From assembly GCA_034421135.1 (NCBI GenBank), contig DAOUKQ010000010.1, positions 21,659 to 85,658 on the forward strand: a stretch of DNA of 64,000 nucleotides, read 5' to 3'. Below the pieces are notes generated by a model. That model did not search any database. It was not told the DNA's origin and saw nothing but the letters and a program-made list of their open reading frames with translations. Position numbers and translations under genes: made by a program. This stretch comes from Dehalococcoidia bacterium. Its GTDB lineage: Bacteria; Chloroflexota; Dehalococcoidia; Bin125. Positions 3,211-33,364 of this stretch are shown here, piece after piece (positions within the stretch are counted from its first letter, which is position 1; every line of letters starts with the position of its first letter).

Positions 3211-4251
3211 ATGCCCCCGTTCGACGTTTCCATTCGCACACCGCTGCTGTGGTTGACTGCCGTTCTCGCGGTACTTGCCGCCGGTTTCGCTGTCGCCTGC
3301 TCGGGCGACGACTCAGACGACCTGCTCTCGATGACCTACATGGGCGGCTTCGTCCCCCAGGCCAATCTGCCCTTCGTCGCTGTGTACGTAGCCGAGGACC
3401 AGGGATTCTTCGCCGATGAAGGACTGGAAGTCGACATCCAGCACGCGGGCTTCACCGGCAGCCACAAGAGCCTGATACTCGCAGGCGAGATCGATATCAC
3501 CACGTTGCCTGCGTCCGAGATGCTGCAGGTCCGCGCCAACTCCGGCGCGCCGTACGTCGCGGTGATGCTCTTCGGACAACGCGGCGACTTCGGCTACGCC
3601 GTGCTCAACTCCTCAGGGATTTCGTCGCCGGCCGATTTCGCCGGTCGCAATGTCGGCTTCAAGGGCATCGTCCAAGCCGAGTTTCACGCGATGCTCGCCG
3701 CGCACAACCTGACGACCGACGACATGAACATGATTGACGTCGGATTCAATCCGGTCGTCCTGGTCGAGCAGCAGGTCGAGGTGTACCCGGTCTTCCTCTC
3801 GAACGAGCCCGACAGCCTGTCGCGCAATCTCAACCAGGAGATCACCGTCTTCGAGGCCGCCGATTACGGCGTGCCGACACTCGGCGTGGTCTACCTGGTG
3901 ACCGAGGAGTTCCTCGAGGACGAGACCAACCGCGAAAAGCTCGAGCGGTTCTTGCGCGCCACCGTCCGCGCCTTCGAGTTTGCCGCAGAGGACCCGGCCG
4001 CCGCGATTGAGTCGACCGAGAAGTTCCTCGCCGAGGACCCGCCGCCCGACCTGGTCCACGAGCGATTCATCCTCGACACGGAGCTGGAGAACGCGCTCAG
4101 CGACCTGACCCGCGCCAACGGCGTCGGCTGGTTCACCCAGCAGCAGTTCCGAGCGCTCACCGATGTCCTGATCGAGTACGGAGCACTGGAAGACGACATC
4201 GATGTCGAAGCGGCCATCGATCGCTCGTTCCTCGAAGAGATTCACCGATAG
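3211..4251 (+). CDS. ABC transporter substrate-binding lipoprotein (NMT1/THI5/SsuA-like)
   Basis: Signal peptide with lipobox (AVACSG) and similarity to NMT1/SsuA-type periplasmic binding proteins. Confidence 0.8.
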   Translation: MPPFDVSIRTPLLWLTAVLAVLAAGFAVACSGDDSDDLLSMTYMGGFVPQANLPFVAVYVAEDQGFFADEGLEVDIQHAGFTGSHKSLILAGEIDITTLPASEMLQVRANSGAPYVAVMLFGQRGDFGYAVLNSSGISSPADFAGRNVGFKGIVQAEFHAMLAAHNLTTDDMNMIDVGFNPVVLVEQQVEVYPVFLSNEPDSLSRNLNQEITVFEAADYGVPTLGVVYLVTEEFLEDETNREKLERFLRATVRAFEFAAEDPAAAIESTEKFLAEDPPPDLVHERFILDTELENALSDLTRANGVGWFTQQQFRALTDVLIEYGALEDDIDVEAAIDRSFLEEIHR

Positions 4252-4289
4252 GGACGGTCGGTCGGCGATTCACCCCGCTCCCTTTGGAG

Positions 4290-4445
4290 ACCCGAGCGTA
4301 AACCAGATCCGGTCCCCTCTCCCCGCGGGAGAGGGTGAGGGTGAGGACCCTCGGTGGCCCCGATGAGTGGCGATGACCAGATAGGCAGAGGCCGCCGGAC
4401 CCTCACCCCGGCCCTCTCCCGGAGGGAGAGGGAGTAAGACCCCAG
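4290..4445. repeat. palindromic intergenic repeat element, family 1, copy A (composite: two inverted hairpin units)
   Basis: Carries gcgtaaaccagatccgg, the hairpin cccctctccccgcgggagaggg, then ...ccctctcccggagggagaggg and gtaagaccccagcga. It matches the reverse complement of the copy at 25338-25446 and has an extra inverted unit. The ORF-track entry 4242..4457(-) lies inside it and is an artefact. Confidence 0.7.
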
Positions 4446-4494
4446 CGACTTATGCACAGGTCTCTTTAGGAAGTGGGGACCGGAGGGATCGAAT

Positions 4495-4992
4495 CTAGCC
4501 GCGGCTGCGGAGGAACTTTTCCTGGCCGGGGGTGGGCTTGTCGCCCGGATAGTGCAGCTTCTTGAGTTCCGGGCGACGCGGGAAGATATGCACCGCGTCC
4601 CAACCGCAGGACTGCTCGCAGAGACGGCAGCCGGTGCAGTTCTTCTCGATCACCACGGCCTGGCCGAAGAAGTCGGAGGCCGACTCGGTGAAGTCGAGTT
4701 CGAGCGCGTCGAACGGGCAGACGTTGATGCAGATTTCGCAGCCTGAGCCGATGCACTTGTCGGCGTCGACCTGCGCTTTGGGCCATTCCTTCTTGGCGAA
4801 CTTGCGGCAGATATCGCCGTCTTCATCGAGGATGCACTCGACCGGGCAGACCGCGCCGCAGGCGCCGCAGTCGATGCAGAGGGCCGGGTCGATGTAGTGA
4901 ATCGCATTGCGCTCGCCCCAGATGGCGTTGGTAGGGCAGCGGTTGGTGCAGGCCGTACAGCCGATGCACGTTTCAACGATTTCGTATGACAC
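4495..4992 (-). CDS. 4Fe-4S ferredoxin, four Cys-cluster motifs (polyferredoxin-like)
   Basis: Four CxxCxxCxxxCP-type motifs: CIGCTACTNRCP, CIDCGACGAVCP, CIGSGCEICINVCP and CTGCRLCEQSC. Confidence 0.8.
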   Translation of the reverse strand: MSYEIVETCIGCTACTNRCPTNAIWGERNAIHYIDPALCIDCGACGAVCPVECILDEDGDICRKFAKKEWPKAQVDADKCIGSGCEICINVCPFDALELDFTESASDFFGQAVVIEKNCTGCRLCEQSCGWDAVHIFPRRPELKKLHYPGDKPTPGQEKFLRSRG

Positions 4993-5136: not shown

Positions 5137-6504
5137 ATGCGCAGATTACGCCCGCGCGGGCCTCGCGTCGTCCTTGGATTCTCCATTGGGCTGCTCCTGA
5201 TTACGATGCTGGCCGCCGCCTGCAGCGACGACACGCCCACGGTTGAGGATTCCGAGCAGGCCCAGTCGGAGCAAGCGGACGCCGCTGCACAGCCCCAGCA
5301 GGAACAGCAAGCGGAACCGATCGACGCCGCCCAGCAAGAGGGAGCCGAATCAACGGCGCAAGAGCAGGCCGCTGCACAGGAGCAGGCCGCCCAGCAGCAG
5401 TCCCAGGCCGAGCAAGAGCCGGCCGAGGAACAGGCCGACGCTCAATCGACCCAGTCCGAGCCAGTCGCAGACGACCCCGATCGTGACATCCTGATCGAGG
5501 GCGAGCTGTTTGCCTCATCGCTGGGACCGGACGAGGACGAGCGTCAGTTCCGCTTCCAGGCGGCGACCGGCGCCTGGCTGCGCGTCCATGTCGACGGCAA
5601 GGGCGGCATGGATCCCGTGGTCACGCTGCTCGATCCCGACGGCGTTGAAGTGGCCGTCAACGACGATCTCTCAACCACCAATCGCGACTCGCTGCTGATT
5701 GCCCAGGTACCCGTCGAGGGCTTGCAGTTCATCCGCGTGCAGCCGTTCGACTCCAACAGCCGCGGCGATTTCGTCATCCAGGTACAGACGCTGACGATCG
5801 GCGCGGACGACGACAACGCCGTCATTGCCGTTGGTACGAGCGCCGACGGTCGCCTGAACACTCCCAACGATGTGGACGTGTTCGAATTCCAGGTCGAGGC
5901 CGGTCAGCAGGTGTTCGTCCAGGTCGACGGCGACACCGGAGTGGATGTCTTCGCACAGCTCCTGCAGCCGGACGGCAACCTCGTCCAGATCGACGACGAC
6001 GGCGGACATGGTCTGGACTCCGAGATCTATTTCACGGCCGACACGGCCGGGCTCTGGCGAGTCGAAGTCTGGCCCGCGGTCAACCGGGCGGGGCAGCGCC
6101 AGTTGATCGGCGCGTACCGGGTCACGGTTCGCGAGGGTCTGCCGACGAGTGCCGTGAACGACGCCGTCGCCTCCGACCTCGCCGCTGCCGCGCTGACCTT
6201 CCTGCAAGCGCTTCGCGACGGCGACGCGCTCACCATCCTGGCGCTCGCCGGACCGGAGGCGCTCACGATCTGGGGCTGGGACGACGACAGCGACGTGGGC
6301 CGCGACATCCAGAAGATCCAATCGATCGATCTCGGCGGCGAGATCCTGCAGACGGCGTCCTTCGGCGATGTCCTGAATCCCGCTCGGGGCCGTGCATACC
6401 TGCAGTTCAGCGAGGATGACTGGATGCGATTCGAGCTGATCCAGCTCGGCGGCCGCTGGCTCGTCGACGATTGGGCACACAGCATTGGACCGCCGGGTTC
6501 TTGA
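5137..6504 (+). CDS. secreted lipoprotein with a Q/E/A-rich acidic linker and two pre-peptidase C-terminal (PPC)-like beta-sandwich domains
   Basis: Signal peptide with lipobox MRRLRPRG...LLITMLAAAC|SDD. About 90 aa of low-complexity QAEQE linker follows. Two repeats fit the PPC-domain pattern (G.LNTPNDVDVFEFQVEAGQ...VQVDG.). The start is taken at Met 5137 rather than the ORF-track start at 5044. Confidence 0.7.
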   Translation: MRRLRPRGPRVVLGFSIGLLLITMLAAACSDDTPTVEDSEQAQSEQADAAAQPQQEQQAEPIDAAQQEGAESTAQEQAAAQEQAAQQQSQAEQEPAEEQADAQSTQSEPVADDPDRDILIEGELFASSLGPDEDERQFRFQAATGAWLRVHVDGKGGMDPVVTLLDPDGVEVAVNDDLSTTNRDSLLIAQVPVEGLQFIRVQPFDSNSRGDFVIQVQTLTIGADDDNAVIAVGTSADGRLNTPNDVDVFEFQVEAGQQVFVQVDGDTGVDVFAQLLQPDGNLVQIDDDGGHGLDSEIYFTADTAGLWRVEVWPAVNRAGQRQLIGAYRVTVREGLPTSAVNDAVASDLAAAALTFLQALRDGDALTILALAGPEALTIWGWDDDSDVGRDIQKIQSIDLGGEILQTASFGDVLNPARGRAYLQFSEDDWMRFELIQLGGRWLVDDWAHSIGPPGS

Positions 6505-18731: not shown

Positions 18732-19439
18732 ATGCTCACAATCACCGCCGCGCTGCCCTGGGAATCGAAAGCCGCACGAGCCGGTCAGGCGATCGCCGGC
18801 CGGGGCCGGGTGCGCATCATCACCACCGGCGTTGGCCCGGATCGGGCGAGGGATGCCGCCGAGGAGGAGTTTGAGCGCCATGAGCCGACGCAGGTGATCA
18901 GCATCGGCGTCGCCGGCGGACTGACCAACAACCTGCGGCGTCCGTCGATCACGATCCCGACCAGCGTCATCCGCCAAGGCGACAGCGCGGAGTTCAAGCC
19001 CGACGACGACCTGCGCAAGCAGGTCGTGCGCCTGCTGAACCAGGCCGACATCTTCTGGCAGTCGGTGACCAGCATTACGACGCCCAAGATTCTCTTCACG
19101 CGGCCCGAAAAACAGGAAGCCGCCGAAACCGGGGCCGAAATCGTCCAGATGGAAGACGCAGAGTGGGCCGAAGCATGTGAACAGGCCGGCATTCCCTTCC
19201 TCTCGATTCGTGTCGTGATGGATGCGCTGGACGACGACATTCCCAACGAGGTCGTCCAGTGGCGCGGCAAGCCGTCGGCGCTGGACATCGCGGTCGGCGC
19301 GATTCGCCGTCCCGGATTGCTGCCCGAACTGCTGTCGCTTGGCATCCAGCGCCAATCGGCAATCCAGGAACTTGAACGCGCCATGACGTTGATCATTCCC
19401 GCGATGACGCCCGAGCTGATCAGCGCTGACGTCGACTAG
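18732..19439 (+). CDS. hpnG: hopanoid-associated phosphorylase/nucleosidase HpnG (PNP_UDP_1 family)
   Basis: PNP_UDP_1-fold motifs (RVRIITTGVGPDRA, ISIGVAGGL, SIRVVMDAL). Supported by its position immediately upstream of the hpnA homolog and near hpnH. The start is the internal Met at 18732. Confidence 0.65.
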   Translation: MLTITAALPWESKAARAGQAIAGRGRVRIITTGVGPDRARDAAEEEFERHEPTQVISIGVAGGLTNNLRRPSITIPTSVIRQGDSAEFKPDDDLRKQVVRLLNQADIFWQSVTSITTPKILFTRPEKQEAAETGAEIVQMEDAEWAEACEQAGIPFLSIRVVMDALDDDIPNEVVQWRGKPSALDIAVGAIRRPGLLPELLSLGIQRQSAIQELERAMTLIIPAMTPELISADVD

Positions 19440-19456
19440 CCCACGAACTGAGCAAC

Positions 19457-20458
19457 GTGAAACGCGCGCTCGTCACCGGCGCGAACGGCTTCATCGGCGC
19501 GCATGTCGTACGCGCCGCGCTCGACGCTGGCACGGAAGTCCGGGCCATGGTTCGCGGGGGCAGCGATCAACGCAGCCTCAATGGGCTGCCGATCGAGATC
19601 GTCCACGGAGACCTCACCGACCCGGCGTCGCTCGCCAAGGCACTGGCAGGTGTCGACACGCTGTTCAACGTCGCCGCGCGATACGACCTCAGCCGCCGCG
19701 CCCGAGCCGACGCCTATCGAGCCAACGTCGACGGCACGCGCAACCTGATGCTCGCCGCGCTCCGAGCGCAGGTTGACCGCGTTGTGCACACATCCTCCGT
19801 CGCCGCAATCGGACCGCCCCATGACCCCGCTCGTCCCGCCGACGAAACGCAGTGGGCAACAGTCGAGGATGCGCCAGGACCGTACGAGGAGACCAAGATT
19901 CTCAGTGAGCGCCTGGTGCACGAGCTGGTCGAATCGGAGAGCCTGCCTGCGGTCTGCGTGCTACCCACCGCGCCGATCGGTCCGCTGGACCTGAAGCCCA
20001 CGCCCACGGGACGGTTAATCCGCGACTCGGCGTCGGGATCGATGCCCGCGTACATTCGCACAGCGGGCCTCAACATCGTCCACGTCCACGATGTCGCGGT
20101 CGGCCACGTACGTGCGGCCGAGGTCGGACTCGTTGACGAGCGCTACATCCTCGGTCATCTGGACGGCAACCTGACGCTGCGACAGATCATCGAGCGCGCC
20201 GCAGCAGCCGGCGGAGCGAACCCGCCTCGCCTGGCGATTCCCTCGTCGCTGGCCTACGCCGCCGCCTTCGTGGACGAGTACCTGGTCAGCGCGCTGACCC
20301 GTCAACAGCCCAGGGCGACCATCGCCGGCGTGCGACTGGCCCGTCAGCGCCAGTTCTTCGACCCGACGAAGGCAATCGAAGAGCTGAAGATGCCTCAGAC
20401 CGACCTGGGAGACGCATTCGGGGACGCCGTCGACTGGTTTCGTACACTCAGTGAATGA
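19457..20458 (+). CDS. hpnA: hopanoid-associated sugar epimerase HpnA (NAD-dependent epimerase/dehydratase family)
   Basis: LVTGANGFIGAHVV Rossmann motif and an extended-SDR fold. Synteny with hpnG. Confidence 0.65.
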   Translation: MKRALVTGANGFIGAHVVRAALDAGTEVRAMVRGGSDQRSLNGLPIEIVHGDLTDPASLAKALAGVDTLFNVAARYDLSRRARADAYRANVDGTRNLMLAALRAQVDRVVHTSSVAAIGPPHDPARPADETQWATVEDAPGPYEETKILSERLVHELVESESLPAVCVLPTAPIGPLDLKPTPTGRLIRDSASGSMPAYIRTAGLNIVHVHDVAVGHVRAAEVGLVDERYILGHLDGNLTLRQIIERAAAAGGANPPRLAIPSSLAYAAAFVDEYLVSALTRQQPRATIAGVRLARQRQFFDPTKAIEELKMPQTDLGDAFGDAVDWFRTLSE

Positions 20459-24204: not shown

Positions 24205-25347
24205 ATGCCCGACTTTGCCGCGCACACCTGGGATGCCGTCGTGATCGGCGCTGGTCCGGCCGGCGCGACGGCGGCTCGTCGGCTCAGCGCAGCCGGCGCG
24301 TCGACTTTGCTGATCGAGAAACAGGCGCTGCCGCGCTACAAGGCTTGCGGGGGAGGCGTTCCCGCACGAACGATTCAACTGCTCGACGATCTGGACATCT
24401 CGCCGGTCAGCGAGGGCTATGTCGACACCATCGATATCTCCCGCCTCGGCCGGCATCAGTTCCGCAAGACATCCGATCAACCGCTCGCCTGGATGGTGAT
24501 GCGAGACCGCTTCGACCAGTTCCTCACCGACATCGCGGTGGAAGCCGGAGCCTGTATCCAGGACAAGACGCCGGTTCAATCGATCACCACTCGTGCGCAG
24601 CATTACGACCTGGAGACGCCAGCCGGTACGGTTCGAGCCCGGCACATCATCGCCGCCGACGGAGCCACCGGACCAACTGCGCGATGGTTGAACATCGGCG
24701 CTGCCCCAACGCGCAGCGCGGCCTACGAGGTCGAGGTGGCAGCGCCGCGCCCCGCGCTCGAGCACTGGCACGGGGCGGCCAACGTCGATATCGGCTACCG
24801 GCCGTGGGGCTACGGCTGGGTCTTTCCCAAAGCTGGCAAGCTCTCCGTCGGTGTGGTCAACGCGCCGAAACGCGGGCGCTCAATCCGAAAGCACACCGAC
24901 CGCTATCTCGAGCGTCTCGGCCTCAGCGCCGCTGAAGTAATCAAGGTCCAGGGTCATCCGATTCGCTACCGCCGATCGAGCCGAGAACCCGTCGCGGCAG
25001 GCCGCACGCTGCTGCTCGGCGACGCCGCCGGTCTCGCCGACGAGTTCACCGCTGAGGGCATCGCCTACGCCGTGCATTCGGCCAACCTCGCAGCAGAGGC
25101 ATTGCTCACATCAGACGAACCCGCTGCTGTCTACACAAGATCGATCAACCAGGAGATCCAACCCGAGCTCAACGCCGCGAGAACCATCTCCCGTCTCTAT
25201 TACTGGTGCGTCACCACCTGGCCCTGGCTCGCGCTAAAGACATCCAAGCACGTCGACTACCTCTGGCGAGCCTTCTTTCGAGTCATGCGCGGCGACTCCA
25301 CCTACGCCGCCGAGCTCTCGAGAGTCCCTCTGATCCCCTCTCCCTGA
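24205..25347 (+). CDS. geranylgeranyl reductase family FAD-dependent oxidoreductase
   Basis: DAVVIGAGPAGATAA FAD motif and the characteristic ...YKACGGGVP... of the GGR family. Confidence 0.75.
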   Translation: MPDFAAHTWDAVVIGAGPAGATAARRLSAAGASTLLIEKQALPRYKACGGGVPARTIQLLDDLDISPVSEGYVDTIDISRLGRHQFRKTSDQPLAWMVMRDRFDQFLTDIAVEAGACIQDKTPVQSITTRAQHYDLETPAGTVRARHIIAADGATGPTARWLNIGAAPTRSAAYEVEVAAPRPALEHWHGAANVDIGYRPWGYGWVFPKAGKLSVGVVNAPKRGRSIRKHTDRYLERLGLSAAEVIKVQGHPIRYRRSSREPVAAGRTLLLGDAAGLADEFTAEGIAYAVHSANLAAEALLTSDEPAAVYTRSINQEIQPELNAARTISRLYYWCVTTWPWLALKTSKHVDYLWRAFFRVMRGDSTYAAELSRVPLIPSP

Positions 25348-25446
25348 GGAGACCAGCGCGTAAATCGCTGGGGTCTTACCCCCTCTCCCGCGGGGAGAGG
25401 GGGCCGGATCTGGTTTACGCGCAGTTCTCCTGAGGGAGAGGGTTAG
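25338..25446. repeat. palindromic intergenic repeat element, family 1, copy B
   Basis: Outer arms gcgcgtaaa...tttacgcgc enclose the hairpin cccctctcccgcggggagaggg. It is the reverse complement of the core of the 4290-4445 copy, and it abuts the start of small-membrane-protein paralog 1. Confidence 0.7.
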
Positions 25447-25456
25447 GGTGAGGGCC

Positions 25457-25816
25457 ATGCCGTGGCTAGTGCTGGATCACCTTGGGGTCGGCCTCATCGA
25501 GTTCGTTGGGATCTTGTTCCTCTTCTTCGTGGCCCCGTCACTCGTTGGCGCCGTCGCCGGCACTTGGATCATGTGGGGGAAGGATCGGAGCCTCTTCCTC
25601 GGCTTTCTGATGGGCTTCGCCATCGGCGCCGCGGGCACGGCGATCGGATGGGGGTTAGTGGTATTGGTCAGCCATCTTGCGCCCTACTTCGTCGGATTGA
25701 CCCTGGAGGTCGCCGCACTCATCGCGATCGCGAAGCATCTGCCAAACGGCGAACCGGACACTTATCTGAGACCAACCGCCCCGCCCAAACCAGACCGAAC
25801 AGACCCTCACCAGTGA
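25457..25816 (+). CDS. small membrane protein, paralog 1 of a tandem family (N-terminal MPWLVLD motif)
   Basis: Hydrophobic, ~2-3 TM segments. Protein and nucleotide similarity to 25846..26144 and 26937..27167. A conserved 5' region (tagggtgag[g/c]gccATGcc[g/c]tggct) is shared with paralog 2. Confidence 0.55.
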   Translation: MPWLVLDHLGVGLIEFVGILFLFFVAPSLVGAVAGTWIMWGKDRSLFLGFLMGFAIGAAGTAIGWGLVVLVSHLAPYFVGLTLEVAALIAIAKHLPNGEPDTYLRPTAPPKPDRTDPHQ

Positions 25817-25845
25817 CCCGTTGCCGGGTGCTAGGGTGAGCGCCA

Positions 25846-26144
25846 TGCCCTGGCTCGTTCTGGACAATCTTGGAATCGAGCCATGGCAGTTCTTTGCACT
25901 GCTATCTATCTTCTTCGTCGGGATTCCACTTGCCGTCGGCGTTGGCGGCTACCTGCTCATGTCGAGCCTGGGACGCAGCCGCAAACTCGGGTTCTTTCTG
26001 GGTACATTGTGGGCGGCGGGCATCATCGCTGCGCTGGCGATTGAGTGGCTTGGCGAGGGCGTAGCGCTGATTCTTGTTGTGGCCGCTGTCGTCTGGATCT
26101 GCTGGCAGTTCCGACAGCGAGGTCGTGACCCAGATGACCCGTGA
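25846..26144 (+). CDS. small membrane protein, paralog 2 (MPWLVLDNLG...)
   Basis: See paralog 1; same family, hydrophobic core FFVGIPLAVGVGG. Confidence 0.55.
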
Positions 26145-26902
26145 CCGAACAGGCTCCTGTCGGTCACTACACTGAACACACCAATCGGAGCGACATGTCC
26201 AACCGCGATGCCCACACCTCGACTCAGACCCTGGTCCGTTTCCGCCTCCCGGACCCGCCAGAGCGTGAGCCGGACGAAGTGACTTCCTACGACTTCGTCT
26301 ATGAAGACGGTGTGACCGCGTGCTTGAAGTGGCACTTCGGGCATCCGGAGTCGACCCTGGTCAAGGCAGACAAGTGGATCGCCGCTTACGTCGGCTACCG
26401 GCCGCTGCGCCGACCCGACCTCTTGGTCGCATTCAACGTCGATCCCGAGCTCTACCGCGAGCAGAACGGCTATGTGATCTCGGACCAGGGCAAGCCGCCC
26501 GACTTCGTGCTGGAAGTCGCCTCGCCGAGCACGGCCGAGGTAGACACGGTCCAGAAGCGTCAGGAGTACGCGTCGCTGGGCATCCGCGAGTACTGGCGCT
26601 TCGACCACACCGGCGAGTCGCACGGGACGCGCCTGGCCGGCGATCGGTTGGTTGGCGATCGATATGAGCCAATCGACATCGTCGAGATCGCGCCGGACAT
26701 TCTGCAGGGCGAGAGCGAAGCCCTGAACCTCTGGCTTCGCTGGGAGGACGGCGAACTGGGCTGGTACGACCCGGCCACCGGCGAGCACATCCCCACCTTC
26801 GACAGCACCCAGGCCGAACTCGCCGCCGAACGCGAGGCGCGCCAGGCCTCCGAAACCAGGGTCCGCGAGCTGGAAGCCGAACTCCGCCGCCTGCGGGAGT
26901 GA
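26141..26902 (+). CDS. Uma2 family endonuclease (DUF820, PD-(D/E)xK putative restriction endonuclease-like)
   Basis: The core PDFVLEVASPSTAEVDTVQKRQEYASLGIREYWRFD matches the Uma2 PD-(D/E)xK signature. GTGA overlap with paralog 2. The N-terminus is unusually long and the start is uncertain. Confidence 0.6.
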   Translation: MTEQAPVGHYTEHTNRSDMSNRDAHTSTQTLVRFRLPDPPEREPDEVTSYDFVYEDGVTACLKWHFGHPESTLVKADKWIAAYVGYRPLRRPDLLVAFNVDPELYREQNGYVISDQGKPPDFVLEVASPSTAEVDTVQKRQEYASLGIREYWRFDHTGESHGTRLAGDRLVGDRYEPIDIVEIAPDILQGESEALNLWLRWEDGELGWYDPATGEHIPTFDSTQAELAAEREARQASETRVRELEAELRRLRE

Positions 26903-26936
26903 GCTTCCCAGCTCGACGCGTTCCCGCCTCACGAGG

Positions 26937-27167
26937 ATGACCCGCGTGGAGCTCCCAAACATCGCCGCCGCCTGGCTCGTCCTGGACCATGGGTCGGACG
27001 TTGCGATTTTCGCATCGATCGCTGGGATTTTCCTGGGTATCCCACTGGTCGCCGGCGTGATCGGAGCGGCAATCATGTCTCGTCTTGGGCGACGGTGGCA
27101 GGACGGAATGTTGTTCGCGGCGCTCTTAGCCCTCCTGGTCGTCGTCATCGTCCTGTTCGGGACCTGA
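26937..27167 (+). CDS. small membrane protein, paralog 3 (AAWLVLDHGS...)
   Basis: Same family as 25457 and 25846 (GIFLGIPLVAGVIGA). Nucleotide similarity around ctggctcgtcctggac. Confidence 0.5.
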   Translation: MTRVELPNIAAAWLVLDHGSDVAIFASIAGIFLGIPLVAGVIGAAIMSRLGRRWQDGMLFAALLALLVVVIVLFGT

Positions 27168-30912: not shown

Positions 30913-32622
<1,710 letters not shown>

Positions 32623-32649
32623 CGCCGGGCACCCGGCTGCAATCGTGTA

Positions 32650-32674
32650 GGGGCAGCCCTTGTGGCTGCCCCTC
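32650..32674 (+). terminator. GC-rich hairpin (AGGGGCAGCC-cttgt-GGCTGCCCCT) after the amidohydrolase gene
   Basis: Perfect 10-bp stem 28 nt after the stop. No T-tract, so it is a factor-dependent terminator or a stabilising hairpin. Confidence 0.4.
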
Positions 32675-32696
32675 GTGCCTCTGTCTGGGAGCGATT

Positions 32697-33320
32697 ATGA
32701 CCGGTTCCGCCATCAACCGCATCGTCACGCAGCGCGTCGTGCATCAGTTGGTGACGGAACGCCTTGTTGCGCGCGTCTACGACAACCCACTCATCAGCAA
32801 TGTGGAACGCGGAGCCTACGTCGAATGCATGATCGAGCTTGCTCTGAGCGACACGCGTCCGCCATGGTCGCTCACGGACACATGGGCCGCATGGGACCTG
32901 CAACAGGATGAGACTGGCGCCCGCATCGAGGTCAAGCAGTCTGCGGCGCTGCAGACCTGGACCGCTGTGACTCCGGGGAACTCACCGCCCAGCTTCGACA
33001 TCGCGCCCCGCACTGGATACTACGAAGATGGCGGAGGCGGCTGGGTCGAGCCCCTCACCCCCTCTCGCTTTGCCGACCTCTACATCATGGCCTGGCACTC
33101 GGAGCGCGACCCGCGGGTCGCCGACCACCGGCGGCCGGATCAATGGCAGTTCTTCGTCGTCCCCGAACACAGGCTGCGATCCGGCCAAAAGCAGATCAGC
33201 CTCAATCCTCTTGCAAGAATGGCCCAGCCGGTCACCTTCGAGGCGCTGGTTCCAGCAGTTGAAGAAGCTCTATTGACCTTGCCGATCTTGAAGGCTGACG
33301 CTGAGTCGGGGGATAGCTGA
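32697..33320 (+). CDS. hypothetical protein
   Basis: 207-aa ORF with good codon usage and no family recognisable by eye. Confidence 0.4.
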   Translation: MTGSAINRIVTQRVVHQLVTERLVARVYDNPLISNVERGAYVECMIELALSDTRPPWSLTDTWAAWDLQQDETGARIEVKQSAALQTWTAVTPGNSPPSFDIAPRTGYYEDGGGGWVEPLTPSRFADLYIMAWHSERDPRVADHRRPDQWQFFVVPEHRLRSGQKQISLNPLARMAQPVTFEALVPAVEEALLTLPILKADAESGDS

Positions 33321-33364
33321 GCGCTCAGAGGACCAGAATCCGAAGGCGGCCTTGCGCTATGATA

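What the first reader, a model, noticed from the sequence alone, without database searches (positions are those of the whole stretch)
4290..4445. Family-1 nested palindromic intergenic repeat (two copies in the window, in opposite orientations)
Copy A (4290-4445) and copy B (25338-25446) share gcgtaaaccagatccgg, the hairpin cccctctccccgcgggagaggg, and gtaagaccccagcga. Copy B is the reverse complement of copy A, and copy A carries an extra inverted hairpin unit plus a ~40-bp spacer. Copy B is itself flanked by outer arms gcgcgtaaa/tttacgcgc. These are REP/MITE-like structured elements. The ORF-track entry 4242..4457(-) is a translation artefact of the repeat. Both copies sit in convergent or terminator-like gaps, and one abuts the small-membrane-protein family described above.
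Basis: seen in the sequence. Interest (0 to 1): 0.6.

Follow-up and report, generated by a model that had tools for sequence, protein, structure and literature searches.

The report
BoxC-carrying mini transposon nested in BoxC
The two repeats are real copies of a small, non-coding, probably mobile DNA element of a Chloroflexota lineage that is built around the already known BoxC "triplex-motif" hairpin of E. coli and sits inside the loop of another such hairpin, which hints at how this puzzling motif moves.

Summary

The shared hairpin is not new. It matches the published BoxC / PIT / TM_ECO pattern described in E. coli (PMC4666352). Copy A's extra hairpin plus spacer is a BoxC inverted pair (one type-B unit and one type-A-like unit with loop TGA), the arrangement seen in E. 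coli.

What is specific to this lineage is a frame around the BoxC modules:
- terminal inverted repeats, (GG)AGACYNGCGCGTAAA
- two different subterminal segments
- short flanking direct repeats

Copy B is 79 nt (25350-25428) and is flanked by CCTGAGG on both sides. Removing it in silico restores a 33-nt BoxC identical to one in E. coli K-12.

Further copies lie outside the window, and occupancy differs between close relatives:
- a third copy on the same contig
- a copy at a different site in a relative about 95% identical in DNA
- copy ends at two contig breaks
- one copy seen only as a spurious ORF

No transposase or RAYT gene lies in the ~71 kb examined, and Rfam gives no match.

The best reading is a MITE-like, non-autonomous element that carries BoxC modules and lands in BoxC loops. 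Recombination between BoxC copies also contributes to its spread. It is a new member of a known kind, of moderate interest.

The parts
4273..4287 (+). Copy A, left flank: decayed outer hairpin arm CCCCGCTCCC, with the direct repeat CTTTGG at 4282-4287
   Evidence: (pair I2). Removing the element in silico leaves CCCCGCTCCCTTTGGAAGTGGGG, an imperfect BoxC-like hairpin.
4288..4302 (+). Copy A, terminal inverted repeat at the alpha end: AGACCCGAGCGTAAA
4303..4314 (+). Copy A, alpha subterminal segment: CCAGATCCGG(TC)
4315..4347 (+). BoxC/TM_ECO unit 1: CCCTCTCCC-CGC-GGGAGAGGG-TGA-GGGTGAGGA. It has one mismatch to the published pattern.
   Evidence: pattern taken from PMC4666352
4348..4399 (.). 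Spacer of the BoxC inverted pair. Parts of it (ACCAGATA, GCCGGACCCTCACCCC) recur in the pair at L081:5072-5137.
4400..4432 (-). BoxC/TM_ECO unit 2, type B, an exact match to the pattern: CCCTCTCCC-TCC-GGGAGAGGG-CCG-GGGTGAGGG
4433..4448 (+). Copy A, beta subterminal segment: AGTAAGACCCCAGCGA
4449..4463 (+). Copy A, terminal inverted repeat at the beta end: CTTATGCACAGGTCT. It is decayed, matching the alpha end at 11 of 15 positions.
4464..4478 (+). Copy A, right flank: direct repeat CTTTAGG (4464-4470) followed by the decayed outer hairpin arm AAGTGGGG
4242..4457 (-). Spurious 71-aa ORF that reads through the repeat
25336..25349 (+). Copy B, left flank: 5' arm of the interrupted type-A BoxC (CCCTCTCCC), with the direct repeat CCTGAGG at 25343-25349. 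The TGA at 25345-25347 is the stop codon of the geranylgeranyl-reductase-family gene.
   Evidence: (family D2)
25350..25428 (-). Copy B proper, 79 nt. Its layout is: beta terminal repeat 25350-25364; beta segment 25365-25378; central 11-bp perfect hairpin 25379-25403 with no third strand; alpha segment 25404-25413; alpha terminal repeat 25414-25428. The two terminal repeats match at 13 of 15 positions, or 15 of 17 if the adjacent GG is included.
25429..25454 (+). Copy B, right flank: second CCTGAGG (25429-25435) and the rest of the interrupted BoxC (GGGAGAGGG-TTA-GGGTGAGGG)
   Evidence: Excision in silico gives the exact 33-mer CCCTCTCCCTGAGGGAGAGGGTTAGGGTGAGGG.

Best explanation
'Family-1' is a non-coding, non-autonomous element of MITE type, specific to a Chloroflexota lineage.

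Anatomy. Its ends are about 15-17-nt terminal inverted repeats, (GG)AGACYNGCGCGTAAA. Inside these lie two unlike subterminal segments: alpha is CCAGATCCGG, and beta is TCGCTGGGGTCTTAC read inward from its end (GTAAGACCCCAGCGA on the alpha-to-beta strand). The cargo is one or two copies of the known BoxC / TM_ECO hairpin-triplex motif. The long form (copy A, 176 nt) carries a BoxC inverted pair. The short form (copy B, 79 nt) looks like a 97-nt deletion between the two hairpins of such a pair.

Target. The element is found in the loop of a resident BoxC-like hairpin, flanked by a 3-7-bp direct repeat of the loop region.

Shown: the anatomy; the direct repeats; the perfect target restored by in-silico excision; several copies at non-orthologous sites; and different occupancy in close relatives.

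Inferred: it is moved in trans by a transposase encoded elsewhere, most likely a DDE enzyme that makes staggered cuts, given inverted ends plus a target duplication. Homologous recombination or gene conversion between dispersed BoxC copies also moves and reshapes it. Where it lands, at the 3' ends of genes, it contributes a very stable stem-loop and can supply or alter stop codons. I see no evidence that it is a gene.
For: Repeat identity:
- Between the two window copies, 40 nt are 97.5% identical and 37 nt are 91.9% identical.
- Ten element ends from six loci align to one consensus.

Ends and duplication:
- Copy B's terminal repeats match at 13 of 15 positions (15 of 17 with GG), and CCTGAGG flanks both sides exactly.
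- In copies A, B and the L084 copy, the asymmetric middle bases of the flanking repeat have the same orientation on both sides (cctGagg/cctGagg; cTTTgg/cTTTagg; TTCAg/TTCAg). This fits a duplication rather than an extension of the palindrome.

Target:
- Excising copy B in silico gives a 33-mer that matches the TM_ECO pattern exactly. It is identical to E. coli K-12 TM no. 17 and to L084:19406-19438.

Copies elsewhere:
- L081:5170-5365, on the same contig.
- L084:19280-19510, in a relative about 95% identical in DNA, at a site where the window has unrelated sequence.
- L095:1-52 and L103:1-80, which are contig ends.
- P0242, a spurious ORF that translates another long-form copy at 77% identity over 65 aa.

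Turnover:
- Copy B is absent from the orthologous site in L084 (97% identical flanking protein) and in L088.
- The copy A site holds other palindromes in L095, L097, L098 and L104.
- The recent copy B has intact ends, while the older copy A has decayed ends.

Not a gene or a known RNA:
- Pfam and Rfam give nothing.
Against: - No transposase with matching ends was found. The ~71 kb of the source contig holds none, and the whole genome could not be scanned.
- Only three copies have both ends, so the length of the duplication (3-7 bp) and the target rule rest on a very small sample.
- At the copy B site, the relatives do not show a clean empty site. They carry a 25-nt mini-hairpin inside the BoxC 3' arm. 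The window allele may therefore have arrived by recombination with another BoxC locus rather than by insertion on the spot.
- At the L081/L095/L103 site, the beta end abuts coding sequence and not a BoxC arm.
- Exact-pattern scans of public genomes and metagenomes returned only chance matches. Copy number and host range are therefore unknown.
Confidence: 0.55

Rival explanations
1. It is a passive repeat spread only by homologous recombination or gene conversion between the many dispersed BoxC motifs. No dedicated transposase is involved. The 'frame' hitch-hikes between BoxC arms that serve as homology.
For: - At the copy B site, the segment that differs from L084 and L088 is bounded exactly by BoxC sequence: CCCCTCTCCCTGAGG on the left and TTAGGGTGAGG on the right. 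The relatives share a different insert there, so this is a replacement and not a simple insertion.
- At two other sites the ends are retained while the interior is swapped for unrelated palindromes.
- The 97-nt difference between copies A and B is bounded by direct GGGAGAGGG repeats.
- Holder et al. link BoxC loci to rearrangements.
Against: - This does not explain how the frame first came to lie inside a BoxC loop with a perfect 7-bp direct repeat and 15-17-nt inverted ends.
- The beta end at the L095/L103 site abuts coding sequence with no BoxC homology.
Confidence: 0.2
2. It is a REPIN-like element moved as single-stranded hairpin DNA by a REP-associated tyrosine transposase (RAYT) or an IS200/IS605-type enzyme.
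For: - The whole element is one long imperfect palindrome.
- BoxC units occur as inverted doublets with a spacer, the REPIN layout (PMC3116915).
- The beta end can form its own subterminal hairpin, AGACC.AGCG / CGCT.GGTCT (my reading).
- The lineage also holds a GTAG-headed REP family.
Against: - There is no GTAG or CGTC head on the family-1 ends (criterion from PMC3733652, of which only the abstract was seen).
- Flanking direct repeats are present, and by my knowledge Y1 transposition does not make them.
- No Y1_Tnp gene appears among the Pfam-annotated genes of the window and its flanks.
Confidence: 0.12
3. It is a selected cis-acting RNA or DNA structure, such as a factor-independent terminator, an mRNA 3' stabiliser or a non-B DNA (triplex or G-quadruplex) element. 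Its repetition would reflect function rather than mobility.
For: - Both copies lie at 3' ends of genes, and copy A lies between convergent genes.
- The folds are extremely stable.
- Relatives have some other strong hairpin in the same gap.
- The BoxC strands match a G-quadruplex pattern. BoxC oligonucleotides form triplexes in vitro (PMC4666352).
Against: - No T-tract follows the stems, and the terminator scan finds nothing at either element.
- Earlier work found no promoter or terminator activity for BoxC/PIT elements.
- The arm differences in copy A are not compensatory.
- Occupancy of the sites is not conserved between near-identical strains.
Confidence: 0.08

Closest known systems
BoxC / PIT / TM_ECO intrastrand-triplex motif of E. 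coli and other bacteria (Bachellier et al., 1990s; Hoyne et al. 2000; Holder et al. 2015, PMC4666352; Kaplan et al. 2016, PMC5100583)
   Same: - The hairpins and G-rich strands match the published pattern CCCTCNCCC-N3-6-GGGNGAGGG-N3-GGGNGAGGG.
- Type A (loop TTA) and type B (loop CCG) units are both present in the lineage, and they form inverted pairs as in E. coli K-12.
- They are strictly intergenic or lie at gene ends.
- One 33-mer is identical to a K-12 copy.
   Different: - The host is a Chloroflexota lineage. Holder et al. counted 262 proteobacterial genomes.
- Here the motif is enclosed by a frame with terminal inverted repeats and flanking direct repeats, and a second BoxC is the insertion target.
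- No such vehicle was reported for BoxC. The authors state that they never found mobility functions.
- The pair spacer is about 52 nt and lineage-specific, against 16 nt in K-12.
Bacterial MITEs (for example Correia/NEMIS, ERIC/IRU, RUP; review PMC3184786)
   Same: - Under 300 bp and non-coding.
- Terminal inverted repeats and a short flanking direct repeat.
- Several dispersed copies, with presence/absence differences between strains.
- Folds as a long stem-loop.
- Sits at gene ends and can change a C-terminus or a stop codon.
   Different: - No parent insertion sequence has been identified.
- The interior consists of a motif shared across phyla rather than remnants of a transposase gene.
- The preferred target is the loop of that same motif.
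Insertion sequences that target REP palindromes (IS1397 and ISKpn1 from my knowledge; survey by Tobes and Pareja 2006, PMC1525189; ISPpu9, PMC12288879)
   Same: A mobile element lands inside a repeated extragenic palindrome, giving nested repeats.
   Different: Those are full-length insertion sequences that encode transposases and target REP/PU sequences. Here the inserted element is 79-176 nt, has no gene, and the target is BoxC.
REPINs and RAYTs (Bertels and Rainey 2011, PMC3116915; Nunvar et al. 2010, PMC2817692)
   Same: Inverted doublets of a roughly 35-nt palindromic unit separated by a spacer, forming a long hairpin and dispersed in intergenic DNA.
   Different: There is no GTAG/CGTC head, flanking direct repeats are present, and no RAYT gene was seen. 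A separate GTAG-headed REP family in the same lineage fits that class better.

Membership tests
BoxC / TM_ECO motif | Sequence pattern 5'-CCCTCNCCC N3-6 GGGNGAGGG N3 GGGNGAGGG-3', with one mismatch tolerated (Holder et al. 2015) | tested here: met
   
- 4400-4432(-) is an exact match.
- 4315-4347(+) has one mismatch.
- The copy B flanks give an exact match once the element is removed.

The central hairpin of copy B lacks the third strand, so it is only a partial unit.
BoxC / TM_ECO motif | Intergenic location, and frequent inverted pairs of one type-A and one type-B unit | tested here: met
   - Copy A pairs a type-B unit with a type-A-like unit whose second loop is TGA.
- L084:19320-19438 is a type-B plus type-A pair.
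- The E. coli K-12 pair was read for comparison.
BoxC / TM_ECO motif | Forms an intrastrand purine-motif triplex or a G-quadruplex | not testable with these tools
   Only the G3N3G3N3G3N3G3 pattern could be confirmed. The structure itself needs CD or NMR, as in PMC4666352.
MITE | Short (under about 300 bp) and without coding capacity | tested here: met
   The elements are 79 nt and 176 nt. The ORFs across them have no Pfam hit and were not called as genes. The matches inspected were other repeat translations.
MITE | Terminal inverted repeats | tested here: met
   - Copy B: 13 of 15 positions match, or 15 of 17 with GG.
- Copy A: 11 of 15 positions match.
- Ten ends align to one consensus.
MITE | Target-site duplication | tested here: inconclusive
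   - Copy B has a perfect CCTGAGG on both sides.
- Copy A has CTTTGG / CTTTAGG.
- The L084 copy has TTCAG on both sides.

The length is ambiguous (3-7 bp) because the target is itself nearly palindromic. Only three complete copies are available.
MITE | Multiple dispersed copies, with insertion polymorphism between strains | tested here: met
   - At least three loci in the source contig, one in L084, ends in L095 and L103, and one more copy seen through P0242.
- Occupancy differs at orthologous sites.
MITE | A cognate autonomous insertion sequence with the same ends in the same or a related genome | not testable with these tools
   Whole genomes could not be scanned. No transposase appears in the annotated ~71 kb of the source contig or in the 21-kb loci of relatives.
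REP / REPIN with RAYT | Conserved GTAG or CGTC tetranucleotide head on the palindrome (Di Nocera et al. 2013; only the abstract was seen) | tested here: not met
   The ends read (GG)AGACYNGCGCGTAAA, with no GTAG/CGTC head.
REP / REPIN with RAYT | A RAYT (Y1 transposase) gene flanked by the repeats | not tested
   None was found in the sequence available. A genome-wide search was not possible.
Intrinsic terminator | G+C-rich stem-loop followed by a T-tract | tested here: not met
   No terminator-like site was found at either element.
Known RNA family (Rfam 15) | Score at or above a family's gathering threshold | tested here: not met
   There were 0 matches in the window. Only sub-threshold matches to hairpin-like (miRNA) models were seen.

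The most novel reading that the evidence does not exclude
Family-1 could show how the BoxC/TM_ECO motif spreads, a motif whose mobility has been unexplained since the 1990s. On this reading, BoxC units travel as cargo of small elements bounded by terminal inverted repeats, and a transposase specifically recognises BoxC hairpin loops as landing sites. That would make the system self-nesting and self-propagating. It could also account for the inverted pairs, the clustering and the 'genomic instability' seen at BoxC loci, and perhaps for the near-identity of the motif across phyla (33 of 33 bases between a Chloroflexota lineage and E. coli).
Probability: 0.15. Interest if true: 0.7.

Novelty: new member of a known kind. 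Interest (0 to 1): 0.42.

Why it matters
BoxC/TM_ECO is one of the oldest unexplained bacterial repeats. It is almost identical in distant bacteria, it forms triplex or quadruplex DNA in vitro, and it marks unstable loci. No mobility function has ever been linked to it (PMC4666352).

This locus shows three things about BoxC modules:
1. They lie inside an element that has the hallmarks of transposition.
2. That element lies inside the loop of another BoxC, with a duplication whose removal restores a perfect motif.
3. Occupancy differs between strains about 95% identical in DNA.

This gives a concrete hypothesis that can be tested on the complete genomes of this lineage: a transposase that targets BoxC loops.

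For annotation, it also explains three local features: the spurious ORFs, contig breaks at these sites, and stop codons or C-termini supplied by repeats. An example of the last is the TGA loop that ends the geranylgeranyl-reductase-family gene.

Tried and rejected
Searches that led nowhere:
1. A genome-contig scan with the 17-mer GCGTAAACCAGATCCGG returned 80 stretches. None carries the hairpin next to the match, and they look like unrelated sequence from diverse taxa.
2. A metagenome-contig scan with GCGTAAATCGCTN{6,14}CCCTCTCC returned 5 matches, all by chance.
3. A viral-contig scan found nothing.
4. A chimeric query made of five reading frames of copy B, meant to catch spurious ORFs over other copies, gave no hit at E <= 0.01. 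The later exhaustive search with the real ORF did find one further copy.
5. A look-up with the ferredoxin gene returned only the source contig.
6. A BLAST search of plasmid records hit only the BoxC part, in enterobacteria, Neisseria and Methylomonas, and never the frame.

Interpretations considered and rejected:
- Integron attC site. By my knowledge, the ends do not fit RYYYAAC / GTTRRRY, and there is no integrase gene nearby.
- Intrinsic terminator. There is no T-tract.
- Known RNA family. Rfam gives nothing.
- Protein-coding ORF.
- Chance similarity.

I also looked in E. coli BoxC flanks for a frame like the one here. The K-12 pair has only a 16-nt spacer, ATCAGCGCGCACGTTC, and no GCGTAAA-type ends.

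Full report
**Source and setting.**
The window is 64 kb of a 149.6-kb metagenomic scaffold, ENA ERZ23495175, NGUY21-1_SAMN17524320 scaffold_73. Its G+C content is 65%. The organism belongs to the Chloroflexota: close homologues of a flanking protein are labelled 'Chloroflexota bacterium'.
- Copy A lies between an NMT1-family substrate-binding protein gene (3211-4251, +) and a 4Fe-4S ferredoxin gene (4495-4992, -). This is a convergent gap.
- Copy B lies between a geranylgeranyl-reductase-family gene (24205-25347, +) and a small ORF on the same strand (25462-25839).
- The rest of the window holds housekeeping genes, including the ribosomal protein operons. It contains no transposase.

**Checking the observation.**
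- The 17-mer, the 15-mer and the hairpin are at the stated places and nowhere else in the window. Chance expectations are 0.24, 1.6 and 0.
- The two copies are in inverted orientation. The similarity runs further than reported, 4274-4490 against 25322-25455 (pairs I1 and I2).
- Copy A has 97 extra bases, 4336-4432.
- Each element folds as one long rod. Copy B gives -85.6 kcal/mol (z = -7.0) and copy A gives -125.4 kcal/mol (z = -6.0).

**The hairpin is a known motif.**
- A BLAST search of copy B against plasmid records matched only 26-30 nt of the G-rich/hairpin part. The hits were in E. coli, Klebsiella, Enterobacter, Neisseria and Methylomonas.
- An idealised 49-nt palindromic version of the motif, built from copy B's flank, matched 4346 of 5426 complete E. 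coli genomes, with a median of 6 places per genome.
- The literature identifies this as BoxC, also called PIT or TM_ECO. [quoted passage not shown] E. coli K-12 has 23 copies, often as inverted pairs of one type-A and one type-B unit. Oligonucleotides form a triplex in vitro. The loci are prone to rearrangement. No mobility function was ever found (PMC4666352; also PMC5100583 and PMC2267715).
- I applied the published pattern to the window. 4400-4432(-) is an exact type-B unit. 4315-4347(+) matches with one mismatch.

**What is specific to this family.**
Outside the BoxC modules both copies share a frame. Aligning ten element ends from six loci gives this consensus, read from outside inward: [outer flank]-(GG)AGACYNGCGCGTAAA-YC...-[inner hairpin]. 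The two ends of one element differ in what follows the inverted repeat:
- Alpha end: CCAGATCCGG.
- Beta end: TCGCTGGGGTCTTAC.

*Copy B.*
- It is 79 nt, 25350-25428.
- Its terminal repeats, AGACCAGCGCGTAAA and AGAACTGCGCGTAAA, match at 13 of 15 positions.
- It is flanked by CCTGAGG on both sides, at 25343-25349 and 25429-25435.
- Deleting the element and one CCTGAGG leaves CCCTCTCCCTGAGGGAGAGGGTTAGGGTGAGGG. This is an exact type-A BoxC. It is identical over 33 nt to K-12 TM no. 17 and to a BoxC in the relative L084.
- The TGA in that loop is the stop codon of the upstream gene.

*Copy A.*
- It is 176 nt, 4288-4463.
- Its terminal repeats are decayed, matching at 11 of 15 positions.
- It is flanked by CTTTGG and CTTTAGG, inside a decayed hairpin CCCCGCTCCC...AAGTGGGG.

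*Duplication or palindrome?*
In copies A, B and the L084 copy, the asymmetric middle bases of the flanking repeat point the same way on both sides. That is what a duplication gives and what a palindrome extension would not. Because the target is nearly palindromic, the repeat can be read as 3 to 7 bp.

*Relation between the two forms.*
The 97-nt difference between copies A and B is bounded by the direct repeat GGGAGAGGG of the two hairpins. Copy B therefore looks like a deletion derivative of a long form (inference).

**More copies, and turnover between relatives.**
- L081:5170-5365 is a third member on the same contig, 6 kb upstream of the window. It has the same terminal repeats, but a different palindrome fills its centre.
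- L095 and L103 are relatives whose flanking protein is 95% and 92% identical. They carry a canonical beta end plus a BoxC arm (decayed in L103) at the orthologous place, and their contigs break inside the repeat.
- L084 is a relative about 95% identical in DNA. At 19280-19510 it has a long-form copy with a type-B plus type-A BoxC pair. At that site the window has a 742-nt island with an unrelated ORF, and L088 has plain BoxC units.
- Copy B is absent from L084 and L088. Both of them carry a 25-nt mini-hairpin inside the BoxC 3' arm instead.
- At the copy A site, L095 and L103 have a possible alpha-end remnant (GAGCGTCAACCTAGACACGG) followed by a doublet of a GTAG-headed REP. L097, L098 and L104 have only simple hairpins.
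- The exhaustive protein search with the artefact ORF found 15 matches among 1.84 billion representatives. Five were inspected. P0242 translates another long-form copy, preceded by an outer BoxC.

**Interpretation.**
Six features fit a MITE:
1. inverted ends
2. a flanking duplication
3. a perfect target restored by excision
4. several non-orthologous copies
5. strain-level presence/absence
6. a young copy with intact ends beside an old copy with decayed ends

Its cargo is BoxC and its landing site is a BoxC loop. Insertion of mobile elements into extragenic palindromes has precedents (PMC1525189, PMC12288879).

The enzyme is unknown. I infer a DDE transposase encoded elsewhere, because Y1/RAYT transposition does not, to my knowledge, make duplications, and because the ends lack the GTAG/CGTC head of RAYT-type REPs (PMC3733652).

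Recombination between BoxC copies clearly also acts. The copy B allele replaces a different ancestral insert, with breakpoints in BoxC sequence, and interiors have been swapped at two other sites.

A selected RNA or terminator role is not supported:
- There is no T-tract.
- Rfam gives no match.
- No compensatory change is seen.
- Occupancy is not conserved.

The stem-loops may still act incidentally at 3' ends of genes.

**Limits.**
- Only three copies are complete.
- Whole genomes could not be scanned.
- Both large-collection DNA scans returned only chance matches.
- Copy number, host range and the transposase therefore remain open.

**Verdict.**
The hairpin module is already known as BoxC/TM_ECO. 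The framed element is a new, lineage-specific member of the MITE kind. Its value is that it may show how BoxC is carried and where it lands.

Noticed in passing
window 32645-32677; L081:4962-4992; L095:5797-5910; L103:5816-5843: A second repeat family with a GTAG head, GTAGGGGC(G/A)(A/G)CCCTTGTGG..GCCCC. In L095 it forms an inverted doublet, a REPIN-like layout, exactly where the window has copy A. It is a better candidate than family-1 for a RAYT-associated REP.
   Followed up: partly
L081:4833-4862, 5197-5216 and 5306-5325: A third palindrome family, GTCCCCGACTTGTTCGGGGAC. One inverted pair of it fills the centre of the third family-1 copy, in place of the BoxC module.
   Followed up: no
window 16100-17003 and 32622-33363: Two islands are present in the window but absent from the relative L084, which is about 95% identical in DNA. 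One encodes a DUF3800 protein (16120-16833). The other encodes a 207-aa protein with no Pfam match (32697-33320). The second island occupies the site where L084 has a family-1 copy.
   Followed up: partly
window 25434-26991: The block just downstream of copy B is only 81-86% identical to L084, while the flanks are about 95% identical. It holds small ORFs without Pfam matches and a Uma2-family (putative restriction endonuclease) gene at 26141-26902. It looks like a locally fast-evolving or exchanged segment.
   Followed up: no
window 25345-25347; L088:11140-11170: The stop codon of the geranylgeranyl-reductase-family gene is the TGA loop of the BoxC hairpin, and the last four codons (IPSP) are the BoxC 5' arm. 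In L088 the loop reads CGA and the protein is 8 residues longer (388 aa against 380). The repeat therefore sets the C-terminus.
   Followed up: partly
L084:11146-11176; L088:11146-11173: A 25-nt mini-hairpin, AGCCTG-CCCCGTG-CCTGA-CACGGGG, sits inside the 3' arm of the BoxC at the site orthologous to copy B. It is shared by relatives whose flanking protein is 97% and 81% identical, but it is absent from the window.
   Followed up: no
L100:80-112 (E. coli K-12, 3781029-3781061); L084:19406-19438; window 25336-25454 after excision: An identical 33-nt non-coding sequence, CCCTCTCCCTGAGGGAGAGGGTTAGGGTGAGGG, occurs in E. coli K-12 and in this Chloroflexota lineage. Holder et al. counted TM_ECO only in proteobacterial genomes, so the host range is wider than that count.
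   Followed up: partly
proteins P0244 and P0245: These predicted 'proteins' from other organisms consist of three or four tandem ~39-aa units (...PLSLWERAGVRVPF.SRPGPHPHPLPRGEGTGIRRLVIY...). They look like translations of tandem arrays of ~117-nt units that contain BoxC, an arrangement not seen in the window.
   Followed up: no
L095:1 and L103:1 (contig ends): Two independent assemblies of relatives break inside the family-1/BoxC repeat at the same orthologous site. This fits a multi-copy repeat that short-read assemblers cannot cross.
   Followed up: no
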